64,000 nt of DNA from an uncultured Lachnospiraceae bacterium (GCA_910588125.1 CAJUPI010000004.1:34591-98590); one strand, 5' to 3'; positions 1,426-53,812 are shown, counted from the first letter of the stretch. Numbers and translations: made by a program. Notes: generated from the letters alone by a model not told the origin.

Positions 1426-1590
1426 ATGAATGAGGGCGTTGCCAAACAAACCGCCCGTCATTTCTCTATCCTGTGTCCGGTTGTTCACGAGCATACGGTC
1501 TGATATTGGCGGACGTTGTCCGTTAAGGGCAGGCTGTGTGTACGTGAGCCATCCGAACATAAGATAAGAGAAGTGGCGGGCTTTTGCTTC
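1426..1590. repeat. Palindromic intergenic repeat element, copy A (terminal inverted arms CCGCCCGTCATTTCTCTATCCTGTGTCCGG / CCATCCGAACATAAGATAAGAGAAGTGGCGGG followed by CTTTTGC)
   Basis: Lies between convergent genes; near-identical copy in inverted orientation at 50533-50690 and partial copies at 52400-52455 and 37647-37680. Confidence 0.7.
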
Positions 1591-1603: not shown

Positions 1604-3844
1604 TTAGTTATTATTGGCTGTCAGAACATAGAGCTTTGACCAGAAATCGGTGCAGATTTCAAAGTCATCCTCCGGCTGGCCGCTGGTGGGCTGTCCGGCA
1701 GAGGCGTCAGTGGTGATGAGGCCTAAGTTCATCAGTTCGTCGCCGCCGTGGCACGTGCCTGTCTGGTCTACGCGATAAACCTTTTTGGGATCCAAGCCTT
1801 TTAAGCGGAGACGCCGGTATTCGCAGTTGACATCATTGAGTATCTTGTAGTAGCCTACGATGGCAGTTCTCTGATCTTCGGATACTACCATCCAGGCGGC
1901 GATATTATGTTCAAAGGGACTCTGCAGCCGGTAGAAAGTACCGAACTGAATGACAGAGCGGTAACGCTTCATGAAACGAATCTGTTCCCGAACCAGTTCC
2001 CGTTCCTCACCGGTCAGCTTTTGCAAATCCAGCTCATAGCCGAAAGCGCCGAAGAAGGCCACATTGCCCCGGGTGGACAAAGGAGTGATACGGTTTAGCT
2101 GGTGGTTGGGCACAGCAGATACATGGGCGCCCATACTGACTACCGGGTAGCCGAAGCTGGTGCCGTACTGGATTTTGATTCGTTCTGCAGCATCAGAATC
2201 ATCGCTGGTCCAGCACTGAGGAGCATAGTAAAGCATTCCGGCATCGAACCGGGCGCCGCCGGAAGCGCAGGACTCGAACAAGATATGAGGGAAGTTCTGG
2301 ATTAGCCGCTCATACAAGGAGTATAGGCCCAACACATAGCGATGGAATACTTCGCCCTGCCGTTCAGGAGCCAGAGCCAGGGAATAGCATTCGGTGATGG
2401 AACGGTTCATGTCCCACTTAATATAAGAAACCTTGGATTCAGAAAGGATCGCGGATATCATCTCATAAATATGGTCAACCACCTCGGCGCGGGAAAAATC
2501 CAGTACATATTGGTGCCGTCCGTGGGACAGGGAGCGTCCGGGTGTCTGAATCAGCCAATCGGGATGGGCGCGATAGAGGTCGCTGTCCATATTGGCCATC
2601 TCAAGCTCTACCCACAGGCCGAATTTCATGCCCAGGGCCTCGATTTTTTCCGACAGGCCCTTGATGCCGTTTGGCAGACGTTCTGTGTTGGCGTACCAGT
2701 CGCCGAGGCCCGCATAGTCATTGCTGCGGGCGCCGAACCAGCCATCATCCAGCACAAACAGCTCCACGCCGTCTGCCTTGGCAGCCCTGGCAATTTCTAC
2801 AAGCTTGTCCTCGTTGAAGTCAAAGTAGGTCGCTTCCCAGTTGTTCAAAAGGATCGGCCGGACCTTGTCCCGCCATTCTCCTCTGGCCAGGCGGCTGCGG
2901 TACAGGCGGTGGAAGGTCTGGCTCATACCGTTTAAACCGTTGCGGGAGTAGACGGTTACAGCCTCCGGTGTCTGGAACTTTTCGCCGGGCGCTAAGTGCC
3001 AGGTAAAGCCAAAGGGATTGATGCCCAACATAACGCGGGTTACATTATAGGTATCCACCTCGGCCTGGGCCAGAAAGTTGCCGCTGTATACCAGGGAAAA
3101 GCCCATCACCTCACCCTGGAATTCGTCTGCCGTGGGCCGTTTCAGCACGATAAAGGGATTATGAGTGTTGCTGGAGTGGCCACGGGTGCTGCTGACAGAC
3201 TGGATGCCCTGTTCCAGGCGGCGGGTCTTCACCTGGCGCTCTCTCGACCAGGCGCCGGAAAATTGAATCCAGTCATAATCGCAGTCCGGCAGATCCAGGC
3301 TGACGCTCATGGCCCTGGTGATGTCAAAGGAGTCTTGGGTGGGATTTTCAAACCGGGCACTTCTGGCGATGACTCCTTCATTGTTAAAAATAGTGTAGAG
3401 AAGGATCAGCTGCAGGCCCAGCAGTTCGTCCTTTAAGGTCACTTCGAGAGTGTCGGCTTCCTCCATTGATTCGGTGTAAGTGGCAGGCAACCCTTCCAAA
3501 ACAGGCTTGCCGGGATAAATACGGTGGGACTGGTAGGTAAAATTGGTGATGCGGCTGCCGTTGTGCTGGAGAATCTCCATAGCGGGAAGCTTGAAGTCCG
3601 TAGTGCCGTAGACGGGATACTCCTGCTTGATGTGTTCTAAAGAGAAGGAATAGCCTTCGGACTGATAAGAAGCCATAGGACGATAGCAGGACTCAAGCAA
3701 GTGGTCAAAATCGGGCCGGTCGCTGATTCTGGCTCCAAAATACAGCTGGCCCAGGTGACCGTTGTCCAGAATTTTTATAATGTAGCTGATTGTTTCGTTG
3801 TACAGGTGAAACTCTCTTGCAGCTTCATGAAAAAGGATTGCCAT
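1604..3844 (-). CDS. Alpha-galactosidase, glycoside hydrolase family 36 (melibiase/raffinose-type)
   Basis: 746 aa from the ATG at 3844 (GGAGG RBS); GH36 catalytic region motifs (KFGLWVELEMANMDSDLYRAHPDWL, FVLDDGWFG, CASGGARFD). The track ORF is extended upstream to 3976. Confidence 0.85.
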   Translation of the reverse strand: MAILFHEAAREFHLYNETISYIIKILDNGHLGQLYFGARISDRPDFDHLLESCYRPMASYQSEGYSFSLEHIKQEYPVYGTTDFKLPAMEILQHNGSRITNFTYQSHRIYPGKPVLEGLPATYTESMEEADTLEVTLKDELLGLQLILLYTIFNNEGVIARSARFENPTQDSFDITRAMSVSLDLPDCDYDWIQFSGAWSRERQVKTRRLEQGIQSVSSTRGHSSNTHNPFIVLKRPTADEFQGEVMGFSLVYSGNFLAQAEVDTYNVTRVMLGINPFGFTWHLAPGEKFQTPEAVTVYSRNGLNGMSQTFHRLYRSRLARGEWRDKVRPILLNNWEATYFDFNEDKLVEIARAAKADGVELFVLDDGWFGARSNDYAGLGDWYANTERLPNGIKGLSEKIEALGMKFGLWVELEMANMDSDLYRAHPDWLIQTPGRSLSHGRHQYVLDFSRAEVVDHIYEMISAILSESKVSYIKWDMNRSITECYSLALAPERQGEVFHRYVLGLYSLYERLIQNFPHILFESCASGGARFDAGMLYYAPQCWTSDDSDAAERIKIQYGTSFGYPVVSMGAHVSAVPNHQLNRITPLSTRGNVAFFGAFGYELDLQKLTGEERELVREQIRFMKRYRSVIQFGTFYRLQSPFEHNIAAWMVVSEDQRTAIVGYYKILNDVNCEYRRLRLKGLDPKKVYRVDQTGTCHGGDELMNLGLITTDASAGQPTSGQPEDDFEICTDFWSKLYVLTANNN

Positions 3845-4063
3845 GTGATGTACCTCCGTTTTTGTCAGATTACACTCTGCCGGGGAGGGATTGGACAGAC
3901 AGATTTGCCCAAACGATAGCCTTTGGCGAGTGCTGTTACATGTGTAGTGTCTGCTTGTCTGTGGTGCCTGTGTCATTTTTCGGTGTAGCTTTATTATAGC
4001 GGAAGGAGGATTTTTGAAAAGGTGGTTATGTATGGGAAAATATCAAAAATGTTAACTGCTTCA

Positions 4064-4703: not shown

Positions 4704-4875
4704 AGGGACTGTTGCAAAAGCAGGGAAATGGCCTGCAAATGCAAGGGTTCTTTTTATTTCGCCGGAAGAAATTTTTGCCCAGTGCATTTTCTCTTTACAA
4801 ACCAATCCGTAAATCGTATACTGAGATGGAATAAAAATGAATGCCGCAGCAAGGCGTGAGAGGAGAGGAATTGTT

Positions 4876-5769: not shown

Positions 5770-7386
5770 ATGAAGGGAAATTGCAAAAGCAAAAGGATCC
5801 GCTGGGACAAAGTGCTTTTATCTATGGTTCTTTGGCATTTGGCATTTTATCTGGTTGGCTGTGTTGCCAAGGAAGAAGAATCCCGCTATCCAGAGGTGGA
5901 AAAATATCTGTTTGACAGATTTGAAGTCCTGGGTAAGTATAGCGGCAATTACTATATTGAGGAGATATCAGAAAACGGAGAAGTTTATTACCGGGTTACC
6001 GAGAAGGAGGGGGAGAAGCTGGAATTTCGTGTGTTCCCGGTGGGAGATGAGTACACAAAGGCCGGCTTTGATGATACTTGCCCGGTGGCCTTTGTGATGA
6101 AAAAGGCCGGGGAGACGGGGCTTGTGCTGGAGCCGGGAGATGGGGAAAAGGAGCTGGTAGCCACAATCGATGGTTATGGGGAGATAGAAGAGCTGGCAGA
6201 AAAGCTGGCTCGGATCGCCGGGGCTTATGAGAAGGCCGGGCTGCCGGCCCGGTTTACCTCAGGGACAAAGGGAGATGGCTGGAACTGTGCGGATATCCGG
6301 GTGGAGATACGTGGATTTTCACCAGAGGGATATGAGCCGGGGGTGATTCATATTCCGGACAACATTAACGGAATCCATGGCAAGGAGGAAATACAGAAGT
6401 ATTTGCAGGCCAATTATCTCACCTATATGTATCGGTATTATCTGGGAGAAATTCCCGGGGAAGTGCCGAAGGAAAGCCTTCGGATAGCCGAAGGAGAACC
6501 GGATGGCATTACTGTGGAATCCGGAGAGAGGGTAACGGAGTATCCCAATCTGGAATATGATGATCTTTATTTTGCGCAAGTGTACCACTTGGCCTGTGAG
6601 GAGGGCTGGGAGGTTACGGCGGAGGAAAACTCTTTTACCATCACGGCAGAGGGGCAGGCGTATCGCTTTGAACTGGTTTTTGAGGAAAGGGATGCCGCCG
6701 ACATATCAGAGAGCGAGTTGTATTTTGGGCGTCGGGAACCACGGGGGCATGCCTTGAATTGTGAGCCCGCCGTTTATTGGTATCCGGCAGAAGGGGAGGG
6801 CCGGATGCCTGCCAGTTCAGAGAAGGCCAGGGACAAGGCAAGCATTTCGGCAGATATCTTGGAACAGATTACCGGAGCCAGACTAGAATCCGGGTTGCGG
6901 TATTTAGATGAGGAGGAACGGATCCGGGAGATTCAGGATGAGGTGGATGGATATCTTCTTCGTTCGGATGTGAAGCAGATCGGAGAAAGTGCCGAGATTG
7001 CCGGCTGGCATATCACTTTGAAACAGACAGAAGCAAAGAAACGGATAGAAGAAGGCGATTGGTATTTGGAGGCGGATGAGGGCAAGATTTTTGTGCTTTT
7101 TAATCTCGAGGTAGAGAATCAGACAACGCAGAAACAGTATTTGTTTGAAAGTGTGGTTACTCCGGAGGAGCTGCAGGCGAGACTGATAAGTTCAGGCGGC
7201 CACCGGGATATTCCGACAGAGGTGCTTTATCTGGAATCCGATATGATAAATCGCAGGATGGAACCGGGCGAGGTGGCTCGTGGCAATTTGATATTCCATA
7301 TGGATGAAAACATTCTTCAGGAAGATGAAACGGTATTCCTGGTGCTCCATACAGAAGATGAGAGCCAGGTTTTCCGGATTCAGTAA
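5770..7386 (+). CDS. Lipoprotein of unknown function, paralog 1 of a tandem pair
   Basis: 538 aa; signal peptide with lipobox LVGC; about 45-50% identical to the downstream gene with colinear conserved blocks. Confidence 0.7.
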   Translation: MKGNCKSKRIRWDKVLLSMVLWHLAFYLVGCVAKEEESRYPEVEKYLFDRFEVLGKYSGNYYIEEISENGEVYYRVTEKEGEKLEFRVFPVGDEYTKAGFDDTCPVAFVMKKAGETGLVLEPGDGEKELVATIDGYGEIEELAEKLARIAGAYEKAGLPARFTSGTKGDGWNCADIRVEIRGFSPEGYEPGVIHIPDNINGIHGKEEIQKYLQANYLTYMYRYYLGEIPGEVPKESLRIAEGEPDGITVESGERVTEYPNLEYDDLYFAQVYHLACEEGWEVTAEENSFTITAEGQAYRFELVFEERDAADISESELYFGRREPRGHALNCEPAVYWYPAEGEGRMPASSEKARDKASISADILEQITGARLESGLRYLDEEERIREIQDEVDGYLLRSDVKQIGESAEIAGWHITLKQTEAKKRIEEGDWYLEADEGKIFVLFNLEVENQTTQKQYLFESVVTPEELQARLISSGGHRDIPTEVLYLESDMINRRMEPGEVARGNLIFHMDENILQEDETVFLVLHTEDESQVFRIQ

Positions 7387-7397
7387 CGGAGGAGATT

Positions 7398-8996
7398 ATG
7401 AAAAAGAACAGGAAAAGCGAGAGATATTTTTGGAAGAATGTGATTTTGGCAATTGCTTTTTGGGGCCTGGCAGCCTGCCTTGGCGGATGTTCTGCCATGG
7501 AGGGAAAATCTTCTTATCCGGAGGTGGAGCAGTATCTGAAAAACCGATATGGCGGCAAATTTCAGATCGAGCAGGTGGCCGGGGACGGGGCGGAAATCTC
7601 TTACCGGGTGGTACAAAAGGATGGAGAAAAGCTGGAGTTTGAAGTCTATCCTGTGGGGAAGGAGTACACCAATAAGGGTTTTGATGATACCTGCCCGGTG
7701 GCCTTTGTGATGAAAAAGGCCGGGGAGACGGGGCTTGTGCTGGAGCCGGGAGAGGGGGAGAAGGAATTAATAGCTACTGTGGATGGGTATGAAGAGCTTG
7801 GGGCACTGGCAGAGAAGCTGGCTCAGATCGCGGATGCCTATGAAAAGGCTGGTCTTCCGGCTAAGTTTACCACCGGAACGGTGGGAGACGGCTGGAACAG
7901 CGCGAATATCCGGGTGGAGATCCGGGGGTTTGCGCCCGAGGGCTACCAGCCAGGGATAATCCGTATTCCGGACAGCGTTACCGGATTTCACGATAAAGAG
8001 TCTATGCAGTGGTATCTGGAAACCAATTACCTGACCTTTTTGAAACGGTATGTTCTGGAAGAGATTCCGGCAGGGATACCAAAGGAGGCATTTCAGGAGA
8101 TAAGAGGGGATGCCAGTGGAATAACGGTTATCAATGGGGAGGAGACGAGAGAATATCCGGAGCTGGATTACCATCATCTCTATTTTGCAGAGGTTTACCG
8201 TCTGGCAAAAAGGGAGGGCTGGGAGCCGGTGGCGGATGAAAATGGCTTTACGATTGCCAGAGGAGAAGAGAATTACCGTTTTGAGCTGGTGTTTGAGGAG
8301 CGGGAAGATATAAAAAATCAGGAGAAATATAAGTATTCCGGGAGCTGGGAGCCTCTGGGCCATGCAGCCGGCCAGGAGCCGGTGGTTTACTGCTTTATGG
8401 CAGGCGAAGAAGAAAAAATGCCAGCCAGTTCCGATTATACCGCGGATAAGGGTGGGATTTCAGTGGATATCCTGGAGCAGATTACCGGAACCACGATAGA
8501 ATCTGGTTTAAAGCTTCAGGACGCGCAAGAGCGGATCCAGGAAATTCAGGAGGAAGCGGACGGGTATCTGCTTCGCTCAGATGCGAAGGCATTGGGTGAA
8601 AGCGTTGAAATTGCGGGCTGGCGTATTACCTTAAACCAGGTGGAAGAAAAGAAACGGCTGGAAACCAGTTCGATGTATTATGAGGCGGATGAGGGTAAAA
8701 TTTTTGTGCGTCTGAATATGGAGGTGGAAAACCTGGGGACGGAAAAGGCGCCTTTTCTCAAGACGATTGTTACTGGCGACGATCTGCTGATACATCTGGT
8801 AAGCTCGGGGGGCCATCGTTATATACCTGTGGATTTGATTGGAATGTCAGATCTGACAAGCGCCTCGGTGGAGCCGAGTGGCGTGGAAAGCGGCGGGCTG
8901 ATTTTTCATATTGCGGAGGATATTTTACAACAGGATGAATATATTTTCCTGGTGTTTAAGGCCGGGGAGGAAAGCAGGCTTTTTAGAATTAAGTAG
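7398..8996 (+). CDS. Lipoprotein of unknown function, paralog 2 of a tandem pair
   Basis: 532 aa; GGAGGAG RBS; signal peptide with lipobox LGGC; shares a 74-bp near-identical nucleotide patch with paralog 1. Confidence 0.7.
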   Translation: MKKNRKSERYFWKNVILAIAFWGLAACLGGCSAMEGKSSYPEVEQYLKNRYGGKFQIEQVAGDGAEISYRVVQKDGEKLEFEVYPVGKEYTNKGFDDTCPVAFVMKKAGETGLVLEPGEGEKELIATVDGYEELGALAEKLAQIADAYEKAGLPAKFTTGTVGDGWNSANIRVEIRGFAPEGYQPGIIRIPDSVTGFHDKESMQWYLETNYLTFLKRYVLEEIPAGIPKEAFQEIRGDASGITVINGEETREYPELDYHHLYFAEVYRLAKREGWEPVADENGFTIARGEENYRFELVFEEREDIKNQEKYKYSGSWEPLGHAAGQEPVVYCFMAGEEEKMPASSDYTADKGGISVDILEQITGTTIESGLKLQDAQERIQEIQEEADGYLLRSDAKALGESVEIAGWRITLNQVEEKKRLETSSMYYEADEGKIFVRLNMEVENLGTEKAPFLKTIVTGDDLLIHLVSSGGHRYIPVDLIGMSDLTSASVEPSGVESGGLIFHIAEDILQQDEYIFLVFKAGEESRLFRIK

Positions 8997-21104: not shown

Positions 21105-22781
21105 ATGGCAGGAAACCATATCTCTAAGAATGAAAAAAAGGGAAAGTACAAAAAAATCGGGATGAAAATCGGAGGCGTTGTGATAGTCTTGCAGGTAATT
21201 TCTGTCCTGCTGGTGATGCTTGTCTGTATTTTTATGTACAATTCTCTGATTACAAAGATGCAAAAGGTCCGCTGTACAAACGGTACAAATATGCTGTCCT
21301 ATTTGCTGGATCAGGCGGCTGGCGATGAGGATATGAATCAGCTGCTGGATGGCCTGAAAAGTCGTATGGGCTGCGAATTCACTATTTTTGAGGGGGATAC
21401 CCGGGCGTACAGCACGGTGACCCAAAACGGCCAGCGGGTAGTGGGGACTAAGCTGTCGTCTGATCTGAGTACGATTGTGCTTCAGCAGGGGAAGTCTTAT
21501 GTGGGAGAGTCAAGCATCCATGGGGAGAGCTATCTGTGTTCCTATGTGCCCACAAAGGGAACTGACGGAAAGATCAATGGACTGATTTTTGCCGGGATTT
21601 CCAGGACAGAGGCCAGGCAGGAGGTGGTTATCGTCGTTGCATTGGCTGTTATGGCAAGCTTTATTACCATTGTTCTCGGTACGATACTCCTGACAGCTTA
21701 TTTAAAAAAGCGGGTTTCGGATCCTCTGGGCGAGATTACCCGGATAGCCGGACAGTTGGAGAAGGGTGAGCTGGGCCTGGCCGGTAATGAGGAGATTCGG
21801 ATTAATGTTTCATCTAATGATGAGGTCGGTATGCTGGGAGAGATGTTTGAGGATACCATTCACCGGCTGCGGTCTTATATCGGTGAGATTTCCAGTGTGC
21901 TGGGTTCCATGGCGAATGGCGACCTGACTCAGAGTACGCGTCAGGATTATATGGGTGATTTCCAGTCTATCAAAAGATCTCTGGATGGCATCCAGGCAGC
22001 GTTTAACAATGCTATGGGCCAGATTACCAGCAGTGCCGGACAGGTTTCTTCCGGAGCAGATCAGGTATCCAGCAGTGCACAGGCGCTGGCTCAGGGAGCT
22101 ACTGAGCAGGCCAGTTCCATCGAGGAGATTTCCGCAACGATGATGGATATCTCCAAGAATGCCAAGCAGACTTCTATGGCGGCTGAGGAAGCAGGTGAAT
22201 ATGTTAATCAGGCGGGGTCCCATCTGGGAGTCAGCATAGGCTTTGTCAAGGAGCTGAACGAAGCCATGGAAAATATTTCCGGTTCTTCGAAGAAAATTGG
22301 TACGATTATTGCCACTATTGAGGATATTGCTTTCCAGATCAATATTCTGGCATTGAATGCGGCTGTGGAGGCGGCCCGGGCAGGTTCTGCTGGCAAGGGT
22401 TTTGCTGTGGTGGCCGATGAAGTAAGTAATTTAGCGTCCAAATCGGATGAAGCGGCTAAAGCTACCAAGAAGCTGATCGAAAGCTCGATTACTGCTGTTA
22501 CCGAGGGTGGGCATATTGTGAATAAAGTGACGGAAGCTTTGGATCAGACCAGCCAGAGTGCAGGACATGTGACTACGCAGATGGCGATCGTGGTGGAGGC
22601 TGTGGAGAAGCAGACAGCAGCGCTTTCTCAGGTTACCGATGGGATTGATCAGATATCTTCTGTGGTTCAGACCAATTCTGCCACCAGCGAGCAATGCGCT
22701 GCTGCCAGTGAGGAGCTGTCGTCTCAGGCCAATTTGCTTAAGGATTTGATGCGTTCCTTCAAATTGAGAGATATTCGTTAA
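21105..22781 (+). CDS. Methyl-accepting chemotaxis protein (two TM helices, periplasmic sensor, HAMP, MCP signalling domain)
   Basis: 558 aa; TM segments near residues 25-45 and 175-200; MA domain with highly conserved IAFQINILALNAAVEAARAG. Confidence 0.85.
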   Translation: MAGNHISKNEKKGKYKKIGMKIGGVVIVLQVISVLLVMLVCIFMYNSLITKMQKVRCTNGTNMLSYLLDQAAGDEDMNQLLDGLKSRMGCEFTIFEGDTRAYSTVTQNGQRVVGTKLSSDLSTIVLQQGKSYVGESSIHGESYLCSYVPTKGTDGKINGLIFAGISRTEARQEVVIVVALAVMASFITIVLGTILLTAYLKKRVSDPLGEITRIAGQLEKGELGLAGNEEIRINVSSNDEVGMLGEMFEDTIHRLRSYIGEISSVLGSMANGDLTQSTRQDYMGDFQSIKRSLDGIQAAFNNAMGQITSSAGQVSSGADQVSSSAQALAQGATEQASSIEEISATMMDISKNAKQTSMAAEEAGEYVNQAGSHLGVSIGFVKELNEAMENISGSSKKIGTIIATIEDIAFQINILALNAAVEAARAGSAGKGFAVVADEVSNLASKSDEAAKATKKLIESSITAVTEGGHIVNKVTEALDQTSQSAGHVTTQMAIVVEAVEKQTAALSQVTDGIDQISSVVQTNSATSEQCAAASEELSSQANLLKDLMRSFKLRDIR

Positions 22782-22889
22782 GATTCAGAAACATACCCGA
22801 TCAGAGAGACTTATGGAAGGGAGGCGTATTTTTCCCGGACAGAGAGGAAGGATCGGGTATGTTTGTTAAAAAGAAATATTATCTAAAAT

Positions 22890-37439: not shown

Positions 37440-37625
37440 ATGGATATGTTAAAGCAGTTTTATGAGGAAGAGGATGGCATGGGAACGGTTGAGCTTGTCA
37501 TGATTATTGCGGCGCTGATGTGCATTGCCCTGCTGTTTCGAGAGCAGATTTTTAAATTTGCCGAGGGCATTATGAAAAATGTGTTCAAAACGGATTATGT
37601 AAAGGATCCTGGTGCCGGGGGCTGA
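37440..37625 (+). CDS. flp: Flp-family type IVb/c prepilin
   Basis: 61 aa; GGGAGGTGG RBS; Flp processing-site-like GMGTVELV followed by hydrophobic helix MIIAALMCIALLF. Confidence 0.7.
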   Translation: MDMLKQFYEEEDGMGTVELVMIIAALMCIALLFREQIFKFAEGIMKNVFKTDYVKDPGAGG

Positions 37626-37646
37626 TTCCTGAGAGCAGAGAGGCAT

Positions 37647-46260: not shown

Positions 46261-49200
46261 ATGAAAGCTATCAAACGAAGGCTGGCCATCATTTTGGCAG
46301 CATTGTTGATGGTTCCGGCACAGCCAGCCCTGGCAGCAGAGCAATTGCTTCCGGAAGTGACAGAAGTAAGGGAGGCTGGGGAGTCCGGCGGGGAAAACAA
46401 AAAGGCAGGCCAGGAAGAAAGTGATGATGTGGCAGGCCAGGATTCAGAAAGGACAAGTGAGGAAGTAAGAGGAGACGATTTGGAAGAAGGGGCAGCGTCT
46501 GAGGAGGAAGGCACATCAAAAGAAGATGTGGTATCCGAGGAAGAAACGGCATCTGAGGAGAGAGAAATATCCGGAGAAGAAACGGCATCTGAGGAGGGAG
46601 AAATATCTGGAGAAGAAACGGCATCTGAGGAGGATAGAGTATCCAGAGAGGAAACGGAGTCTGAGGAGAAAGAAGTAGTCGAAAAGGAAACGGCATCTGA
46701 GGAGGGAGAAGTGTCCGAAAAGGAAACGGCATCTGAAGGAGGGGAAATATCTCGGAAAGAAACGCCATCTGATGAGAAAGCCGTATCCGAAAAAGAAGGG
46801 CTATCCGAAATCGATGAGGGTTCAGAAAATGAGGAAGAACCTTTTGAAGAAGAGCTTCTTGATGATGATGATTTATGGATGAAAGATGTCAGTTTGGCGA
46901 CTGGGGCAAATGCAAAAAAGGCAATCGTCCGGTCAGAAGAAGGAATCTTGTTTAATACGGGAAATCATGTATACCAGGTGGTCAGCAGAGAGGATTTTTT
47001 TGACAATGAGCTGGGAGATGCCTTCTTTGAAGAGGATGGAAGCTATACCATCAATATTCCGGAGATGAATCCTTTCTTTCCTTATGAGGTGGAATTTACT
47101 TATGAGGGAAAAAAGGTAAGAGAATGGTTTATGACCCCGGATGATTGTGTGGAGATTGGCGGACATGCTTTCTATGTGTCGGCTTGCTTTGACGGGACTG
47201 TGGTGACACAGATGAGCCTGAAGGTAGCCGGAGATACGGTGGTGGTTTATCCAGAGGAGAAAGAATTTACGGATGAAGAACAGGGAGAAGTGAGTCCGTT
47301 GTCATTGTTGCCGTTGGATCAAAGGACATATAATATCGATTTGGTAGGTTATACTCCAGCGGAATTGACAATGGTATCTTTAGATAAAATTTTCACAGGA
47401 GAAAAAGTTCTGCAGGATACAGATAAAATAGCATGGACGAAGCAAGGGGAAGAAAATTTTACTATCAGTTCGCCGGGAGACAAAATAGATTTAAGTTATG
47501 AGACCAGTTATAGTTATGGATTGTTTAATATTCATAATATAGACTGGGCTATGATAGTAGGGGATGCAGATCAACTGAATAAGGATAACTTTCGTTATAA
47601 CTTTTGTATATATGTAAAGAATTCGAGAAATTGGATTAATGCAGAACTCTATACTCAGGACAGTTCAGGAGTAAGAACCAATATTGAATTATTGGGAAAT
47701 GATGTAGAATATCAGGATAGCTATGGTTGCGAAAGAGAATTGAACATATGGGCACATTCGGATCAGCTAAGGGAAAATCGAACAGCATATGTTGGGCTGG
47801 ATATTAATAATACGGGTTTTTCTGATATGGAATATGCAGATCTTAAAGTCTATGAAGGAAAATTCACATCCGCTAAAGAGGCGTTGTCCGGAACTGATAT
47901 CACAGACAAGATATTTGGCGTTGAGATGAATAATACCGATGCCGGATATCAGATAGAATTATATGAAGATCTTTGGATTACCATGGTAACCTTTGATACC
48001 ACTGGACAACCGACAGGATGTTTGCCTTTTATGTTATATCTGGGAAGAAAAAATACGGAAAACCATGTCAGCAGTGGTAATCTATTTACCGTTTCAGGAG
48101 ATAATAATATTATAGATATTACAGATAGGCAACAAAACAGAAAACGAGATAAGTATAATGAAGTTACTTATACATTGTATAAAGGATATAAGGCAGAAGA
48201 AGTATATTATCTTAAATTGAGCTACTATACAGAAGGAAAATATAATGCATCAAAGGTAACAGCTGCTTATGTGGGAAACTATTCATCTATAGAAGAGTCT
48301 GTGAGAGCCGGAGGAGTAAATATCAAGGATGAATTGTTTGGAAATTCAAAACTTGGATTTCAGGCGGATTATAGTAAAGGTGTTGATTTTACTATTTTTG
48401 TAGGTGAAGATAGTACAGAAAATCAAGAGGTTTATCATTATAAGGTTAAAGCTGTAGAAGGTATGAAGGAACCTCCCCTGAGTAGTAATACATCAGTACA
48501 GTTTTTGGGTGTAGTGGATGAAAACGGAAAAAATATTGAGGCTCGTGTTCTGGAAACAAATAAAGATTCATATGCAGAAGGCTGTTATATCACAATTCTT
48601 GTGGGTAGAAATGTAAAACTCACAAAACTGGCATTAAAATTTTACGCTAATGATTTGAATTTATATGCAGAGGATAGTAGTAGTCCAGAGGTCAGTGGAA
48701 AAAGCTATCATGATTATTCCCAAGGTGTTGTACAATTTACAGCTTCAGCGGAAAATGGAATAGGTTCAAGAAACTATTGGGTTCAGGTGGTACCGGCTGG
48801 AATAGAGGGAGGAAAGCTTTATGTCAACAGTTTGGCAGATAAAGAGGCAAAGACGAGGGTAGAAAACGGGATAACTTATTCTATTCGAGAAATGTATTTG
48901 GATGGCCGTTATAATTATGTCCATGATATTTTGCTGGTTAATATAGGGGAGGAAGAACTGCCTGCTCTTTCGGCGGAACTGGTATCAGAAGAGGTAGTGC
49001 TTGATGATTATTGGTCTTTAACCGGAAATTCTTCATTTATGGGAATTGATACTAGTCCAGTGTTTGAAGAGCATTTTGATATTTTATATGGAAAGTTATG
49101 GAACCAGGCAAAACTCCGTATCCGGGCGAGAGACGGAATGGCAGACGGACGGGATATCACGGGCACATTGACGATTAAGTCAGGGGAAAATATTTTGATG

Positions 49201-50490: not shown

Positions 50491-50532
50491 AAACCGGATC
50501 CAATATCCAGGTTTTGAGCAGGAGGAGGGTGT

Positions 50533-50690
50533 TGTAAAATAAGCCGCCTGTCATTTCTCTATCCTGTGTTCGGATGATTCATGTACACATAGTCTGATCT
50601 TAATGGACACAGTCCGCCAATATCAGACAGTATGTTCGTGAACAGCCGGACACAAGATAAGAGAAATGACGGGCTGTTTGTTTTTTAACG
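50533..50690. repeat. Palindromic intergenic repeat element, copy B (inverted relative to copy A)
   Basis: Reverse complement aligns along its whole length with 1451-1580; arms GCCGCCTGTCATTTCTCTATCCTGTGTTCGG / CCGGACACAAGATAAGAGAAATGACGGGC followed by a T-rich tract. Confidence 0.7.
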
Positions 50691-50816
50691 CTTTCTATTC
50701 TTTGTATGAAATGAGTTAGGGCACTTTGCAAAAACTTCCGCATTTTATCACAGAATAGGACAGAATAACAAGAAAAAAGATTGTCTAATATTAAAAAATA
50801 TGATATGGTAAATAAA

Positions 50817-50859
50817 TATCATTAAGTTTATCTCTGAGAAAATTAGCTTAATGACATTG
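50817..50859. repeat. Intergenic motif family 2, copy 2 (ATATCATTAAGTTTATCTCTGAGAAAATTAGCTTAATGACATTG)
   Basis: Shares ATATCATTAAGTT and CTGAGA ... AATGACATTG blocks with 44737-44796 and 52339-52366. Confidence 0.55.
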
Positions 50860-51019
50860 TATGGTAATTTATCTATTTCCAATACCCTGGTTTGTGAGGG
50901 GTATCTTATGAACCCGAAATCTAAAAGTCGGGAGTTCATTCTTCTATCATATCCGGACGGCTTTGGCTGATCAGGAAAAATCTCAAGAGGAAATCAAATT
51001 ATATCAGGAGGAAGTGCAT

Positions 51020-52270
51020 ATGAAGAAAAACAAAAATTTTCAGGCAGACAGAACTTCCGTCTCCAGGAAAAAGCAGATGGGGAGATCTCAAAAAAGCTTA
51101 AGAAACCAGGAACCTTTGGCAAAATATTTTCCCAATATAAGATCTCGAAAAGAGGTTTTTGAGCTTATTTGTTCCAACAAAGAATTAAAAGATATCTTTT
51201 ATCAGTGGAACGAGAGGGAGCAGAGTGCGTTTCTGGACTGTTGTACAGGTGCCAGAGGGATGAAAGTGTTGTATGACGGGATTTTTAAGGAGGTTTTTAA
51301 TCCAGAAATAACGCCGGAAAGGCTGGAAGAACTGCTATCTTTGCTAATAAAAAGAAAATTGAAAATAAGGCAGGTGCTTCCTAATGATTCCGTCCGTCTG
51401 GGGGCAGAATCATCACTGTTATATACGGATATTATTATTCAGCTGGAGGATGGCAGCCTTGCTAATGTGGAAATTCAAAAGATTGGATATGCATTTCCCG
51501 GAGAAAGATGTGCCTGTTATTCTGCCGATCATTTACTGAGACAGTATAAGCGGGTTCGTGGCGAGCAGGGAAAAAATTTTAATTATCGCAGTATCAAAAA
51601 TGTCTATACTATCGTGTTTTTCGAACAATCTCCTAATGAGTTTCATAAATTTCCCGATCAATGGCTACATATATTTCGTCAACAATCAAATACAGGGCTT
51701 TTCCTGGAGCTATTACAAGAATATTATTTCATTCCTCTTGACATTTTCAGAAAAACAATGGAAAATAAATGTATTGAAAATGGTTTAGAGGCATGGCTTG
51801 CATTTTTATGTTATGATGAGCCGGAGCGGATTGAAGAGTTAATCTGTCAATATCCAAAGTTTAAAACCATGTACCAGGATATATATGAAGTTTGCAGAAA
51901 TATGGAAAAGGTGATGAATATGTATTCGAAAGAACTTCAGGAGTTGGATCATAATACAGTGTTGTATATGATAGATGAGATGCAGGAGCAATTGAATAAG
52001 AAGACTGCAGAATTAGAGAAAATAAATATGCAATTGAAGGAAAGAGGGATAGAATTAGAGAGAAATATTGCCCAGCTGGAAGAGCAAGGTATTCAGCTGG
52101 AAGAGCAAGGTATTCAGCTGGAAGAGCAAGGTATTCAGCTAGAAGAGCAAGGTATTCAGCTGGAAGAGAAAGATGTTCAGCTGGAAAAGAAGGATGCGCA
52201 GCTGAAAGACTTGGAAGAGTTGGTGCGGCAATTACAGGAGCAGATATCTGCTCTGCAGGGATGTAGCTGA
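51020..52270 (+). CDS. Rpn/YhgA-like PD-(D/E)xK nuclease-family putative transposase with C-terminal heptad-repeat coiled coil
   Basis: AGGAGG RBS before ATG 51020; PD-(D/E)xK-like core YTDIIIQLEDGSLANVEIQK; the ORF track's upstream TTG start is less likely. Confidence 0.65.
   Translation: MKKNKNFQADRTSVSRKKQMGRSQKSLRNQEPLAKYFPNIRSRKEVFELICSNKELKDIFYQWNEREQSAFLDCCTGARGMKVLYDGIFKEVFNPEITPERLEELLSLLIKRKLKIRQVLPNDSVRLGAESSLLYTDIIIQLEDGSLANVEIQKIGYAFPGERCACYSADHLLRQYKRVRGEQGKNFNYRSIKNVYTIVFFEQSPNEFHKFPDQWLHIFRQQSNTGLFLELLQEYYFIPLDIFRKTMENKCIENGLEAWLAFLCYDEPERIEELICQYPKFKTMYQDIYEVCRNMEKVMNMYSKELQELDHNTVLYMIDEMQEQLNKKTAELEKINMQLKERGIELERNIAQLEEQGIQLEEQGIQLEEQGIQLEEQGIQLEEKDVQLEKKDAQLKDLEELVRQLQEQISALQGCS
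52066..52191 (+). repeat. In-frame 21-bp tandem repeat (4 perfect and 2 degenerate units) encoding (LEEQGIQ)n
   Basis: CTGGAAGAGCAAGGTATTCAG x4, then CTGGAAGAGAAAGATGTTCAG and CTGGAAAAGAAGGATGCGCAG. Confidence 0.8.
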
Positions 52271-52338
52271 TTTTAATTATGGAAGAAGGTGCTGCAAAAT
52301 AAACCGGCCGTTTCCCGCTCCTTTTTCCCTGGCGTACC

Positions 52339-52366
52339 TTCTGAGAAAATTAACGAAATGACATTG
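52339..52366. repeat. Intergenic motif family 2, copy 3 (TTCTGAGAAAATTAACGAAATGACATTG)
   Basis: Followed at 52367-52399 by a perfect 13-bp-stem hairpin CTGCTCTTAACGG-ACTTTTC-CCGTTAAGAGCAG. Confidence 0.5.
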
Positions 52367-52399
52367 CTGCTCTTAACGGACTTTTCCCGTTAAGAGCAG

Positions 52400-52455
52400 G
52401 TTGTTTGTATGTGAACCATCCGAACACAGGATAGGGAAATGACGGGAGCTTTTGC
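52400..52455. repeat. Palindromic repeat family, partial copy C (right arm only: CCATCCGAACACAGGATAGGGAAATGACGGGAGCTTTTGC)
   Basis: Aligns with the right arm of copy A (CCATCCGAACATAAGATAAGAGAAGTGGCGGGCTTTTGC). Confidence 0.6.
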
Positions 52456-52465
52456 AATACCCTTT

Positions 52466-53812
52466 TTAATAATGGAATTTTTTTTGTTTGCTTACCAAAA
52501 AAATCCCGGCTACCAGTACCGATAGAAATTCAGCTGCCACGATGGAGAACCAAATGCCGTCCAATTGCCAGATGAGAGGCAGAAGAAGCACGGCAGCAAT
52601 CTGGAACACCAAAGTCCTCAGAGACGAGATTAGGGCGGAGGTCAGACCGTCGTTTAAAGCAGTAAAGAATCCTGAGCCAAAGATTGCAAATCCGGCAAAC
52701 AGGAAGGAAAAAGCAAAGATCGCAAATCCATGAAGAGTCATTTCCAGTAAGCTCTTGTCATATCCGACAAACAGACGGGAAAGAGGGCGGGCCAAAAACA
52801 GGGAGGAAGTAAACATAAGTAAGGCAAAGATACTGATGATTTCCAGGCTTTTTTTTCGAAGATTTTTCAACTCGCTGTAATTTCCAGCACCGTAATGATA
52901 TCCGATCACCGGAGATACTCCTACGGAAAATCCAATATAGGCAGCTAAAAAAATAAAATTCACATACATCAGTACCCCGTATGCGGCAACGCCGTCTTCA
53001 CCGGCATAGCGGAGTAATTGCACATTGTAGAGCATGCTTACGAGAGAGGAGGAAATATTGCTCATCAACTCGGAAGAGCCGTTGGCGCATATCTTGAAGA
53101 AAGCCCTGCCGTCAAATCGTGCTTTGGTGAGTTTCAGCAGACTGGTGTTAGGACGGGCAAAGTAAAACAAGGGCAGAATTCCGCCGATACACTGGCCAAT
53201 TCCGGTAGCGGCGGCTGCGCCTTCAAGACCCCAGGAGAATACCGCAATAAAAAGGGCGTCCAGTACAGCGTTAGTAAGCCCGGCCGCAAGGGTTATGTAA
53301 AGCCCAAGCTGTGGTTTCCCGGCTGTGGCAAAAAGACATTGAAATTCATACTGGAGAATCGAGGCAGGAATTGCAAGCAGAATTACTCTGCCGTAAACGA
53401 GGCAGTCCTCCAAAAGCTGTCCTTCCGCTCCCAAAACTATGGCAATGGGTCTGAGAAACAAAAAACCAAGGATCGTCAGGATAAAGCCAAAGGCCAGGGA
53501 GAGATAGATTAGCATGGAAAACAGTTCATTTGCTTTTTCAATTTTTCCTTTTCCCAGAGTCAGGGCAATCAGGGCCCCGCCGCCGGTGCCGAACATAAAA
53601 CCTGCGCTCCCTAAGATCATCAGTATGGGTATAATAAAATTGACAGCAGTAAATGCTGTTTTCCCGACATAGTTGGATACAAAAAATCCGTCAACCACCC
53701 CGTAAATGGATGTAAAAATCAGCATGATAATGGATGGAAAGGTGAAATAAATCAATCGTTTGAAATTAAAATGGTCAGATAATTGTATGACCTGATGGTG
53801 TTTCCTAAACAT
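52466..53812 (-). CDS. MATE-family multidrug/oligosaccharidyl-lipid efflux transporter
   Basis: 448 aa, 12 predicted TM helices, MatE repeats; AGGAG RBS. Confidence 0.85.
   Translation of the reverse strand: MFRKHHQVIQLSDHFNFKRLIYFTFPSIIMLIFTSIYGVVDGFFVSNYVGKTAFTAVNFIIPILMILGSAGFMFGTGGGALIALTLGKGKIEKANELFSMLIYLSLAFGFILTILGFLFLRPIAIVLGAEGQLLEDCLVYGRVILLAIPASILQYEFQCLFATAGKPQLGLYITLAAGLTNAVLDALFIAVFSWGLEGAAAATGIGQCIGGILPLFYFARPNTSLLKLTKARFDGRAFFKICANGSSELMSNISSSLVSMLYNVQLLRYAGEDGVAAYGVLMYVNFIFLAAYIGFSVGVSPVIGYHYGAGNYSELKNLRKKSLEIISIFALLMFTSSLFLARPLSRLFVGYDKSLLEMTLHGFAIFAFSFLFAGFAIFGSGFFTALNDGLTSALISSLRTLVFQIAAVLLLPLIWQLDGIWFSIVAAEFLSVLVAGIFLVSKQKKFHY

What the first reader, a model, noticed from the sequence alone, without database searches (positions are those of the whole stretch)
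1426..1590. Family of approximately 150-bp palindromic intergenic repeats present in both orientations at gene 3' ends
Copy A (1426-1590) and copy B (50533-50690) are near-identical over their whole length but inverted relative to each other. Each has roughly 30-bp terminal inverted arms and ends in GGGC-TTTTG. Partial copies carry only a right arm (52400-52455) or only a left arm (37647-37680, right after flp).

All four copies sit immediately after stop codons, and two lie between convergent genes. This is the behaviour of transcribed REP/ERIC/BOX-like elements or MITEs that double as bidirectional terminators or mRNA-stability hairpins. Such a family is not catalogued for this lineage as far as I can tell from the sequence.
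Basis: seen in the sequence. Interest (0 to 1): 0.6.

Follow-up and report, generated by a model that had tools for sequence, protein, structure and literature searches.

The report
Dispersed long-hairpin terminator-like repeats
An uncultured gut Lachnospiraceae bacterium carries a previously uncatalogued family of 150-185-base hairpin repeats just after gene ends, most likely copy-and-paste transcription terminators like the small dispersed repeats known in other bacteria.

Summary
Copies A (1426-1590) and B (50521-50704) are homologous and mutually inverted. The two "partial" copies are not partial. C (52281-52467) is a full-length mosaic, and D (37631-37785) is a complete but diverged hairpin.

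Each copy is one long imperfect hairpin of about 55-70 pairs with its own A-run and T-run. Each begins 4-40 nt after a stop codon.

I found two more long copies on metagenome contigs (89.5% identical to B). I also found five or six shorter relatives in one Lachnospiraceae MAG. Seven of 11 copies lie between convergent genes, and none lies in a gene or a divergent promoter region.

A sister species (95% and 93% identical flanking proteins) lacks A, B and C at the same sites and has ordinary short terminators there.

In older copies, arm mismatches are almost all G·U on one strand. This points to selection on the RNA hairpin.

There is no Rfam match and no phage or plasmid match. Target-site duplications are absent in 9 of 11 copies, and no partner transposase was seen. 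The family is therefore not a demonstrated MITE.

The closest analogue is pneumococcal SPRITE. The verdict is a new member of a known kind and of moderate interest. Termination and mobility are inferred, not shown.

The parts
1426..1590 (+). Copy A, long form. It is a whole-length hairpin between the convergent AraC-family regulator gene (522-1424, +) and the GH36 alpha-galactosidase gene (1604-3976, -). Its right outer end is diverged.
   Evidence: E = 2e-51. Arm mismatches are 11.5 G·U on the + strand against 2 on the - strand. It is absent at the orthologous site of the sister species.
50521..50704 (-). Copy B, long form, inverted relative to A. It lies after the 1409-aa surface-protein gene (46261-50490, +). 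The strand that folds better as RNA is +, the sense strand of that gene.
   Evidence: E = 3e-56. G·U counts are 12.5 against 4. It is 89.5% identical to the copy on contig L056. It is absent in the sister species.
52281..52467 (+). Copy C, a mosaic long form between the PDDEXK_2 gene and the MATE gene (52466-53812, -). 52281-52307 is the family-1 outer left arm. 52308-52366 is a segment of a different repeat family (family 3). 52367-52467 is the family-1 inner hairpin plus right arm. Its last bases overlap the MATE stop codon.
   Evidence: E = 4e-44.
37631..37785 (+). Copy D, a diverged and shorter complete hairpin directly after the flp pilin gene (stop at 37625) inside the tad pilus operon. 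It is followed by UUUAUUU. It is probably a partial terminator or attenuator after the pilin gene.
   Evidence: E = 8e-9. The + strand folds at -50.8 kcal/mol and the - strand at -32.3 kcal/mol.
52272..52285 (.). Left member of the direct repeat that flanks C (TTTTAATTATGGAA). The right member is 52463-52476 (TTTTAATAATGGAA), which includes the MATE stop codon and last codons. It could be a target duplication of about 7 bp (AATWATG), or it could be coincidence.
   Evidence: The sister species has a single AATAATG at this place.
51020..52270 (+). PD-(D/E)XK nuclease family 'transposase' (Rpn-like) gene lying between B and C. This is context only. The whole B-gene-C block is absent from the sister species.
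   Evidence: (PF12784, E = 5.7e-15). Homologues elsewhere have no such hairpins.
44734..44797 (.). Short palindrome of a different repeat family (family 3, ends CCAATRTCATTA...TAATGACATTGG), 16 nt after the stop of the 614-aa gene. It is the same family as the piece inside C.

Best explanation
These are copies of a dispersed, non-coding hairpin repeat family of a Lachnospiraceae lineage. The long form is about 150-185 nt. Related short forms of 55-100 nt occur in another MAG.

**Anatomy.** Each copy is a self-contained module in this order: a purine-rich outer end (AAGAGGGTGTTGC), an A-run (AAAATAAG), one long imperfect stem of about 55-70 pairs, a U-run (CUUAUUUU), and the complementary outer end.

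**Likely function (inferred).** Transcribed from either side, the module gives a very stable RNA hairpin followed by a U-rich tract. The most likely role is an intrinsic terminator and 3'-end hairpin. It would be bidirectional at convergent gene pairs, and an attenuator after flp.

**Spread.** Shown: the copies are homologous to each other, and they are present or absent at orthologous sites between close species. Inferred: the sequence has been copied to new gene ends, where it takes the place of ordinary terminators.

**Mode of copying.** This is unknown. Most copies have no target duplication. The modules occur nested and as mosaics with two other hairpin repeat families. I therefore favour a mechanism that does not depend on a classical DDE transposase, such as hairpin-directed or recombination-based copying, over classical cut-and-paste. 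This last step is speculation.
For: **Homology far beyond chance.** L056 and B are 89.5% identical over 152 nt at unrelated loci.

**Structure.** Each copy folds far better than shuffled sequence, with z down to -11. RNAalifold on five long copies gives 67 pairs, 6 of them with compensatory changes. Sliding the partner columns drops pairing from 77% to 47% or less.

**Terminator anatomy.** The A-run and U-run are part of the repeat on both sides.

**Position.**
- 7 of 11 copies lie between convergent genes.
- 3 follow a gene in a tandem arrangement. One context (L015) is unclear.
- None lies in coding sequence or a divergent promoter region.
- The binomial probability is p = 5e-4 against the 8 of 50 convergent junctions in the window.

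**RNA-level constraint.**
- Transition mismatches between the arms are lopsided towards G·U on one strand: A 11.5:2, B 12.5:4, L019 11:0, L033 0:5.5.
- The near-perfect, apparently young copy L056 is 4:3.
- For B and D, which have an upstream gene on the + strand only, the favoured strand is that gene's sense strand. Counted on minimum-free-energy folds the ratio is 20:5, p = 0.002.

**Turnover.** The sister species (AraC 95% identical, MATE 93% identical) has unrelated short terminators where A and B-gene-C sit. Homology stops exactly at the gene ends.

**Analogy.** The pneumococcal SPRITE repeat has the same behaviour (PMC3049150, read).
Against: - No transcript 3' ends or termination data exist for these sites.
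- Stems of 55-70 pairs are far longer than any normal terminator. Such duplexes could be RNase III substrates, which would destabilise the message rather than terminate it.
- The outermost 20 nt pair beyond the U-run. They are not needed for termination, which hints at a DNA-level role.
- Formal covariation is not better than column shuffles.
- G·U lopsidedness could in part reflect strand-biased C-to-T mutation.
- Copy number in the host genome is unknown. Only 4 copies in the 64-kb window were seen, with none in about 10 kb of extra flank.
- Exact and degenerate motif scans found the family in only one of 185,579 species genomes.
- Polarity is not established. The sister species could have lost the elements rather than the window lineage gaining them.
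Confidence: 0.6

Rival explanations
1. It is a classical MITE, a deletion derivative of an insertion sequence. A DDE transposase would move it in trans by recognising the outer inverted ends (AAGAGGGTGTTGCAAAA), and the terminator-like behaviour would be a side effect.
For: - The family is small, non-coding and multi-copy, and its conserved outer ends extend beyond what termination needs.
- Internal deletions with retained ends, as in the short forms, are typical of MITEs.
- Copy C, and one short hairpin in L025, are flanked by AATWATG-like direct repeats at a similar target, AATAATGGA.
Against: - 9 of 11 copies, including the near-perfect young copy L056, have no flanking direct repeat.
- No transposase other than a PDDEXK_2 gene is in the window.
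- No related sequence is in 72,556 plasmids or 50,697 phage records.
- Filled and empty sites differ by complete replacement of the intergenic DNA, not by a clean insertion.
Confidence: 0.17
2. It is a REPIN-like element. A single-strand-specific HUH (RAYT or IS200/IS605-type) transposase, encoded elsewhere in the genome, would recognise the folded hairpin and insert it without target duplication, possibly into other hairpins.
For: - There are no target duplications.
- The symmetry is that of a whole-length hairpin.
- Different hairpin families are nested and form mosaics: family 2 sits inside family-3 arms, a family-3 piece sits inside C, and L025 and L019 carry clusters of fragments. This recalls the BIME and REPIN clusters found between convergent genes (review PMC3184786).
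Against: - No Y1 transposase gene is in the 64-kb window or in any fetched locus. This was not searched systematically.
- The arms lack a conserved GTAG or CGTC tag. CGTC is present in A, B, C and L056 but not in D, L033 or L057.
- The units are 3-5 times longer than REP doublets.
Confidence: 0.12
3. The copies spread passively by recombination. Gene cassettes such as the Rpn-like nuclease gene would bring their own terminators, and gene conversion between hairpins would homogenise them. No element-specific machinery would exist.
For: - B and C bracket a PDDEXK_2 gene, and the whole block is missing from the sister species, where a 70-nt spacer with a simple terminator lies instead.
- That simple terminator shares GGCGTTGCC-AAA with the outer arm of A. 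Short terminators may therefore be collapsed relatives.
Against: - Rpn homologues with 69-75% identity in other genomes have ordinary terminators and no family member.
- A, D, L056 and L057 sit next to unrelated genes.
- 89.5% identity between copies in different contigs and contexts needs real copying.
Confidence: 0.08
4. It is a structured small RNA gene or a type I toxin-antitoxin locus with its own promoter.
For: The RNA structure is very stable, and an open frame runs through A on the - strand.
Against: - There is no Rfam match, only chance miRNA-hairpin hits.
- No convincing promoter lies next to the copies.
- Single-base indels between copies break every reading frame.
- The copies are wedged between stop codons.
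Confidence: 0.03

Closest known systems
[quoted passage not shown] 2011, PMC3049150)
   Same: - It is a small dispersed repeat of a Firmicute whose transcript is a long stem followed by a U-rich tract.
- It is the pneumococcal repeat most strongly enriched between convergent genes and close to CDS 3' ends.
- No target duplication and no insertion sequence with matching ends are known for it.
- It has tens of copies and is restricted to one species and its nearest relative.
   Different: - SPRITE is about 105 nt, AT-rich, with an 18-bp duplex and a long U-rich tail. Here the whole 150-185 nt forms one hairpin of 55-70 pairs.
- This family is symmetric, and so terminator-like on both strands.
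- It has short and long forms and forms mosaics with other families.
- Sequence relatedness to SPRITE was not tested.
ERIC/IRU, Correia (CREE), RUP and bcr1: MITE-like imperfect palindromes of 100-170 nt
   Same: - The size is similar.
- They fold over their whole length.
- They lie in transcribed intergenic regions and occur in both orientations.
- They are present or absent between close relatives (review PMC3184786).
   Different: Those with a known mechanism make short target duplications and resemble the ends of an insertion sequence. The review names direct-repeat target duplications as a MITE signature, and RUP and BOX are stated to cause TSDs. From my own knowledge, the duplications are TA for Correia and RUP and TTTAT for bcr1. 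Most copies here have none, and no insertion-sequence partner was found.
REP / BIME / REPIN elements with RAYT transposases
   Same: They are extragenic palindromes, biased to convergent junctions, clustered and mosaic, and have no target duplication (PMC3184786; abstract of PMC3733652).
   Different: REP units are 20-40 nt with a GTAG or CGTC tag and occur in hundreds of copies next to a RAYT gene. Here the units are much longer, the tag is not conserved, and no RAYT was seen.
Ordinary bidirectional intrinsic terminators
   Same: They have an A-tract, a GC-containing stem and a U-tract between convergent genes. The sister species has exactly such hairpins at the same sites.
   Different: The stem here is five to seven times longer, and the sequence is shared between unrelated loci and between species.

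Membership tests
MITE | Terminal inverted repeats around a short non-coding core, under about 400 bp | tested here: met
   The whole element is an imperfect palindrome of 150-185 nt. Indels between copies break all reading frames.
MITE | Flanking direct repeats (target-site duplication) of constant length | tested here: not met
   No direct repeat of 8 or more matching bases (one mismatch allowed) was found at 9 of 11 copies. Only C (AATTATG/AATAATG) and the L025 hairpin h1 (AATAATCGAT/AATAATGGAT) have one.
MITE | A full-length insertion sequence with the same ends that encodes the transposase | tested here: inconclusive
   None is in the window, in about 400 kb of fetched loci, or in the plasmid and phage collections. 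The host genome as a whole could not be searched.
MITE | Several dispersed copies, with presence or absence differing between relatives | tested here: met
   There are 4 copies in the window, 2 on other contigs and 5-6 short forms in MAG JAAWNY01. A, B and C are missing in the sister species.
REP / REPIN | A 20-40-nt palindromic unit with a conserved GTAG or CGTC tetranucleotide at one end | tested here: not met
   The arms are 60-70 nt. CGTC occurs in some arms (CCCGTCATTTC) but is replaced in D, L033 and L057.
REP / REPIN | An associated RAYT (Y1 HUH transposase) gene flanked by the repeats | not testable with these tools
   This needs the complete host genome. No such gene appeared in the window proteins scanned against Pfam or in the precomputed Pfam lists of the syntenic sister and host loci. 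The window was not annotated exhaustively.
SPRITE-like terminator repeats (functional class) | A dispersed repeat whose transcript is a long stem plus a U-rich tract | tested here: met
   The U-runs are UUUUG, UUUGUUUUUU, UUAUUUU and UUUAUUU.
SPRITE-like terminator repeats (functional class) | Enrichment close to CDS 3' ends, especially between convergent genes | tested here: met
   7 of 11 copies are convergent, against 8 of 50 junctions in the window (p = 5e-4). All copies begin within about 40 nt of a stop codon, apart from two in intergenic regions crowded with other hairpin fragments, L025 and L026.
SPRITE-like terminator repeats (functional class) | Sequence homology to pneumococcal SPRITE | not tested
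The host lineage, length and base composition all differ, so only an analogy is claimed.
Intrinsic terminator | Transcripts actually end at the U-tract | not testable with these tools
   This needs Term-seq, 3' RACE or in vitro transcription.
Integron attC site | An imperfect palindrome that starts with RYYYAAC and ends with GTTRRRY, at the 3' end of cassettes | tested here: not met
   Read directly, the ends read GTTG...CAAC, the opposite arrangement. GTTRRRY is not matched. The copies are dispersed, not in arrays.
Any Rfam 15 RNA family | A score at or above the family gathering threshold | tested here: not met
   There were 0 hits in the window. In the related loci searched, the only hit was a tRNA. 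Permissive searches gave only sub-threshold miRNA-hairpin matches.

The most novel reading that the evidence does not exclude
These elements would be one of at least three families of modular hairpin cassettes in this Lachnospiraceae lineage. They would copy themselves into, and replace, resident terminator hairpins without target duplication and without a classical transposase. This would amount to a hairpin-into-hairpin, nesting mode of mobility. It might use a structure-specific nuclease, and a PD-(D/E)XK Rpn-like gene does sit between two copies. Terminators themselves would then be the mobile unit and the insertion target.
Probability: 0.1. Interest if true: 0.7.

Novelty: new member of a known kind. 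Interest (0 to 1): 0.36.

Why it matters
- Small dispersed repeats have been described mainly in cultured pathogens, and I found no description for Lachnospiraceae. These repeats shape 3' UTRs, operon boundaries and the stability of intergenic DNA in abundant gut commensals.
- They can break metagenome assemblies and seed spurious gene calls. Two copies were found here only because gene callers had translated them.
- A family with no target duplication, whose modules nest in one another and replace ordinary terminators, would be a useful system for asking how terminator sequences turn over.
- It would also help to ask whether some terminators are selfish DNA that the host has co-opted.

Tried and rejected
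**Searches that found nothing.**
- An exact 20-mer from the arm (GTCATTTCYCTATCCTGTGT) gave 0 hits in viral contigs and 0 in the 185,579 species genomes. It gave one chance hit in JGI metagenomes, on a 60% GC contig with no element.
- The degenerate arm motif in viral contigs gave 2 hits that scored as chance.
- BLASTN of A against plasmids and phages gave nothing.
- Rfam at gathering and at permissive thresholds gave nothing meaningful.

**Ideas tested and set aside.**
- Hairpins as the ends of an Rpn/PDDEXK_2 mobile unit. Two homologous Rpn loci (69% and 75% identity) have no such hairpins, and the identical protein is seen only at this one locus.
- attC sites. The end motifs are in the wrong order.
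- Target duplications. A systematic search was negative except at C and at L025 h1.
- Covariation on a nine-copy alignment. It was not better than shuffles. That alignment mixes strands and forms.
- General enrichment of the outer-stem motif GGCGTTGC in the window. There is none.
- A coding small protein. The frames are broken by indels.
- The simple terminator scanner. It cannot see these hairpins because it caps the loop at 8 nt and counts at most 20 stem pairs.

**Limits on the empty-site comparisons.**
- For A, and for the B-gene-C block, the comparison shows whole-spacer replacement, so the exact insertion junctions could not be read.
- The orthologous site of D in the sister species could not be fetched.

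Full report
**What is in the window**

A (1426-1590) and B (50521-50704) align over their whole length when B is reverse-complemented. The repeat finder gives 84% complementarity over 100 nt, and further matches in the outer parts. A profile built from A and B finds A and B at E about 1e-54. It finds C over nearly its whole length at 3e-18, and finds D weakly. A profile built from five long copies finds D at 8e-9 and nothing else in the 64 kb. A degenerate 23-nt arm motif occurs five times in the window and never in 100 shuffles.

So the repeat is real, and there are four copies.

C and D were described as single arms, and that is wrong. D has both arms and folds into a complete hairpin. C is full length. 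The inner half of its left arm (52308-52366) has been replaced by a piece of another repeat family.

**Anatomy**

Every copy is one long imperfect hairpin.
- A on the + strand folds at -81.5 kcal/mol, against -41 for shuffles (z = -11.3).
- B on the + strand folds at -74.2 kcal/mol (z = -10.9).
- D on the + strand folds at -50.8 kcal/mol (z = -4.5).

The consensus of five long copies is a hairpin of 67 pairs.

Reading inward from either end, the arm runs as follows: a purine-rich block (AAGAGGGTGTTGC), an A-run (AAAATAAG), a GC-rich segment that varies between copies but stays complementary (GCCCGTC, ATCAGCC, ATCCACC, CCCTCGCC), then CATTTCYC, TATCCTGTGTYCGG, and an inner hairpin.

The A-run and the matching U-run therefore belong to the repeat, not to the flank. 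The best-preserved copy, on contig L056, is an almost perfect 187-nt palindrome with 74 Watson-Crick pairs.

**Position**

- A fills the 179-nt gap between the stop codons of a convergent AraC-family regulator gene and a GH36 alpha-galactosidase gene.
- C fills the gap between a PDDEXK_2 gene and a convergent MATE transporter gene.
- B follows a 1409-aa surface-protein gene.
- D follows the flp pilin gene inside a tad operon.

The window has eight convergent junctions, four of them with more than 60 nt of spacer. Two of those four hold the family.

**The host**

The window matches contig CAPTST010000001.1 of MAG GCA_948708725.1. The closest named relatives of its proteins are Lachnospiraceae MAGs. 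Dorea is about 70% identical for the MATE protein.

None of the five motif matches of the window was recovered from the collection of 185,579 species genomes. This species is therefore not in that collection.

**Copies elsewhere**

The degenerate arm motif found 34 loci in the species genomes (I had estimated about 17 by chance). Most are scattered over unrelated phyla and score as chance. Five lie on different contigs of one Lachnospiraceae MAG, JAAWNY01. There the element is shorter, 55-100 nt. It has the same outer arms and the same right-hand motif, GTGAACCRTCCRAACAC, which in the short forms sits in the loop.

All five lie in gaps between genes. Four are clearly between convergent genes, and the fifth is probably so.

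Translating A on the - strand and searching 1.84 billion representative proteins found three spurious ORFs made from the element. One is copy A itself in another strain. The other two led to two further long copies:
- L056 lies between convergent genes.
- L057 lies between tandem genes.

L056 is 89.5% identical to B, 89.6% to L057 and 83.7% to A.

Counting all copies, 7 of 11 are between convergent genes, 3 follow a gene in tandem, and one is unclear. None is inside a gene or between divergent genes. The binomial probability is p = 5e-4 against the window's own share of convergent junctions.

**Orthologous sites**

A sister species has 95% (AraC) and 93% (MATE) identical proteins and the same gene order.

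At the AraC/GH36 junction it has a spacer of the same length, but the sequence is unrelated and ends in an ordinary short terminator. A species with 82% identity has yet another spacer. Homology stops at the stop codons on both sides.

At the MATE junction the sister has only 70 nt, with a simple bidirectional terminator. The window has 1975 nt at that place: B, the Rpn-like gene and C.

The family is thus present or absent between close relatives. However, the change is a replacement of the whole spacer, so the insertion junctions cannot be read and polarity is not proven. The stem of the sister's simple terminator, GGCGTTGCC...GCAACGCC, matches the outer stem of the family. It may be a collapsed relative, although the motif is not generally enriched.

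**Evidence that the RNA matters**

In a hairpin, a transition gives G·U on one strand and A·C on the other. Neutral decay should give about equal numbers.

Aligning each copy with its own reverse complement gives these counts of G·U on the + strand against the - strand:
- A: 11.5 to 2
- B: 12.5 to 4
- L019: 11 to 0
- L015: 6 to 2
- L033: 0 to 5.5
- L056, the near-perfect copy: 4 to 3

Counts on minimum-free-energy folds agree. B and D have an upstream gene on the + strand only. For them, the favoured strand is that gene's sense strand, 20 to 5 on the folds, p = 0.002.

This is what selection for an RNA hairpin at the end of a message would produce. A strand-biased mutation process could contribute, but ratios of 11:0 are hard to reach that way.

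Formal covariation on a mixed nine-copy alignment was not better than shuffles. Compensatory changes are visible in the GC-rich segment.

**How it probably works**

Shown:
- The repeat is homologous between loci.
- It has hairpin-plus-U-run anatomy on both strands.
- It is placed at gene ends.
- It turns over between species.
- It has one-strand G·U bias.

Inferred:
- It ends transcripts. It would act bidirectionally at convergent pairs and as a partial stop after the highly expressed pilin gene.
- It has been copied to new gene ends.

Unknown: the copying mechanism.

**Tests of mechanism**

- Flanking direct repeats were sought at every copy. Only C (AATTATG/AATAATG, 13 of 14 if extended) and a small hairpin in L025 (AATAATCGAT/AATAATGGAT, with a third copy 26 nt further on) have them. 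Both are at a similar sequence.
- The other nine copies, including the youngest-looking one, have none.
- The window holds no transposase apart from the PDDEXK_2 gene.
- That gene family is not generally accompanied by these hairpins.
- Nothing similar is in the plasmid or phage collections or in Rfam.

The defining MITE feature, a target duplication, is therefore not met. The REP/RAYT features are not met or cannot be tested. The attC motifs are in the wrong order.

**Other repeat families**

Looking at the neighbours showed that this is not the only such family in the lineage.

Family 2 is a second long hairpin. Copies are 89-95% identical between a JAAWNY01 contig and several sister-species loci.

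Family 3 consists of arms ending CCAATGTCATTTAGATAAG. It occurs alone, and it also occurs as the outer arms around family 2. The combination gives a palindrome of about 340 nt in the sister species, at a place where the window has an unrelated 95-nt spacer. Family 3 also occurs in the window at 44734-44797 and inside copy C.

Some spacers in JAAWNY01 are graveyards of fragments of several families. This modular, nested arrangement recalls BIME clusters and BOX modules. It is the main reason I keep a non-classical copying mechanism open.

**Comparison with what is known**

The closest described case is SPRITE of Streptococcus pneumoniae. It is a terminator-like dispersed repeat with 30 copies. 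It is the pneumococcal repeat most enriched between convergent genes and lies close to CDS ends. It has no recognisable target duplication and no insertion-sequence partner. It is confined to the species and its nearest relative (PMC3049150).

ERIC, Correia, RUP and bcr1 are similar in size and folding, but they are MITE-like (PMC3184786). Systematic surveys of stem-loop repeat families exist (abstract of PMC2267715, listed). My searches found nothing for Lachnospiraceae.

I therefore file this as a new member of a known kind, the small dispersed terminator-like hairpin repeats, and not as a member of any named family.

**Verdict**

Interest is moderate. Function and mobility remain inferences. 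The host genome could not be scanned as a whole.

Noticed in passing
window 50521-52467 versus L049 11347-11418: The block 'copy B + PD-(D/E)XK (Rpn-like) nuclease gene + copy C' (about 1.9 kb) is absent from the sister species. There the MATE gene and the 1408-aa surface-protein gene are 70 nt apart, with a simple terminator between them. B and C are inverted relative to each other, so the gene is bracketed by 160-nt inverted repeats.
   Followed up: partly
L040 14225-14570; L019 2586-2736; L049 9043-9259; L025 4663-4854; window 44734-44797 and 52308-52366; L056 1112-1240: Two further palindromic intergenic repeat families occur in the same lineage. Family 2 is a hairpin of about 150 nt, 89-95% identical between loci of different MAGs. 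Family 3 is a set of arms ending CCAATGTCATTTAGATAAG. Family 3 arms can enclose a family 2 hairpin, giving a palindrome of about 340 nt that is missing at the orthologous window site (4704-4800). Neither family matches Rfam.
   Followed up: partly
L040 10904-10955 and L026 2344-2393 and 1608-1659: In the sister species, the spacer that replaces copy A starts with a family 3 arm. That arm is 88% identical to sequences in an unrelated locus of MAG JAAWNY01. The 'empty' site is therefore itself occupied by another repeat.
   Followed up: partly
window 22769-22884: Another long inverted repeat (34-nt arms, 74% complementary, 48 nt apart) lies in the 108-nt gap between a convergent chemotaxis-receptor gene and a Spo0A_C-domain gene. 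It is unrelated in sequence to the family studied here.
   Followed up: no
window 52031-52219: Seven tandem 21-nt units (CAGCTGGAAGAGCAAGGTATT, encoding QLEEQGI) lie in the C-terminal coiled-coil part of the Rpn-like gene.
   Followed up: no
window 46495-46833: Tandem 36-nt units encode an acidic EETASEEGEIS-type repeat near the N-terminus of the 1409-aa surface protein. That protein also has C-terminal cell-wall-binding-like repeats.
   Followed up: no
window 5770-8996: Two adjacent paralogous genes of about 535 aa (5770-7386 and 7398-8996) share 77% identical stretches at a spacing of 1613 nt. Neither has a Pfam hit on record in the syntenic loci. Only one copy is present in the relative with 82% identical AraC (L043), and none in the sister species (L040).
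   Followed up: no
window 50696-51019; L053 9700-10000; L054 9830-10000: The region upstream of the Rpn-like genes is conserved between distant loci (AAAATGGTTGC..ATATGGTATG.., then a leader of about 150 nt). This suggests a shared promoter and a structured 5' leader for this gene family.
   Followed up: no
L025 905-1234: One convergent spacer of MAG JAAWNY01 holds a small family-1-like hairpin flanked by AATAATSGAT, a 26-nt remnant flanked by two perfect AATAATGGATT copies, a lone outer-arm fragment, and a truncated short-form element. It looks like repeated insertion into one preferred target.
   Followed up: partly
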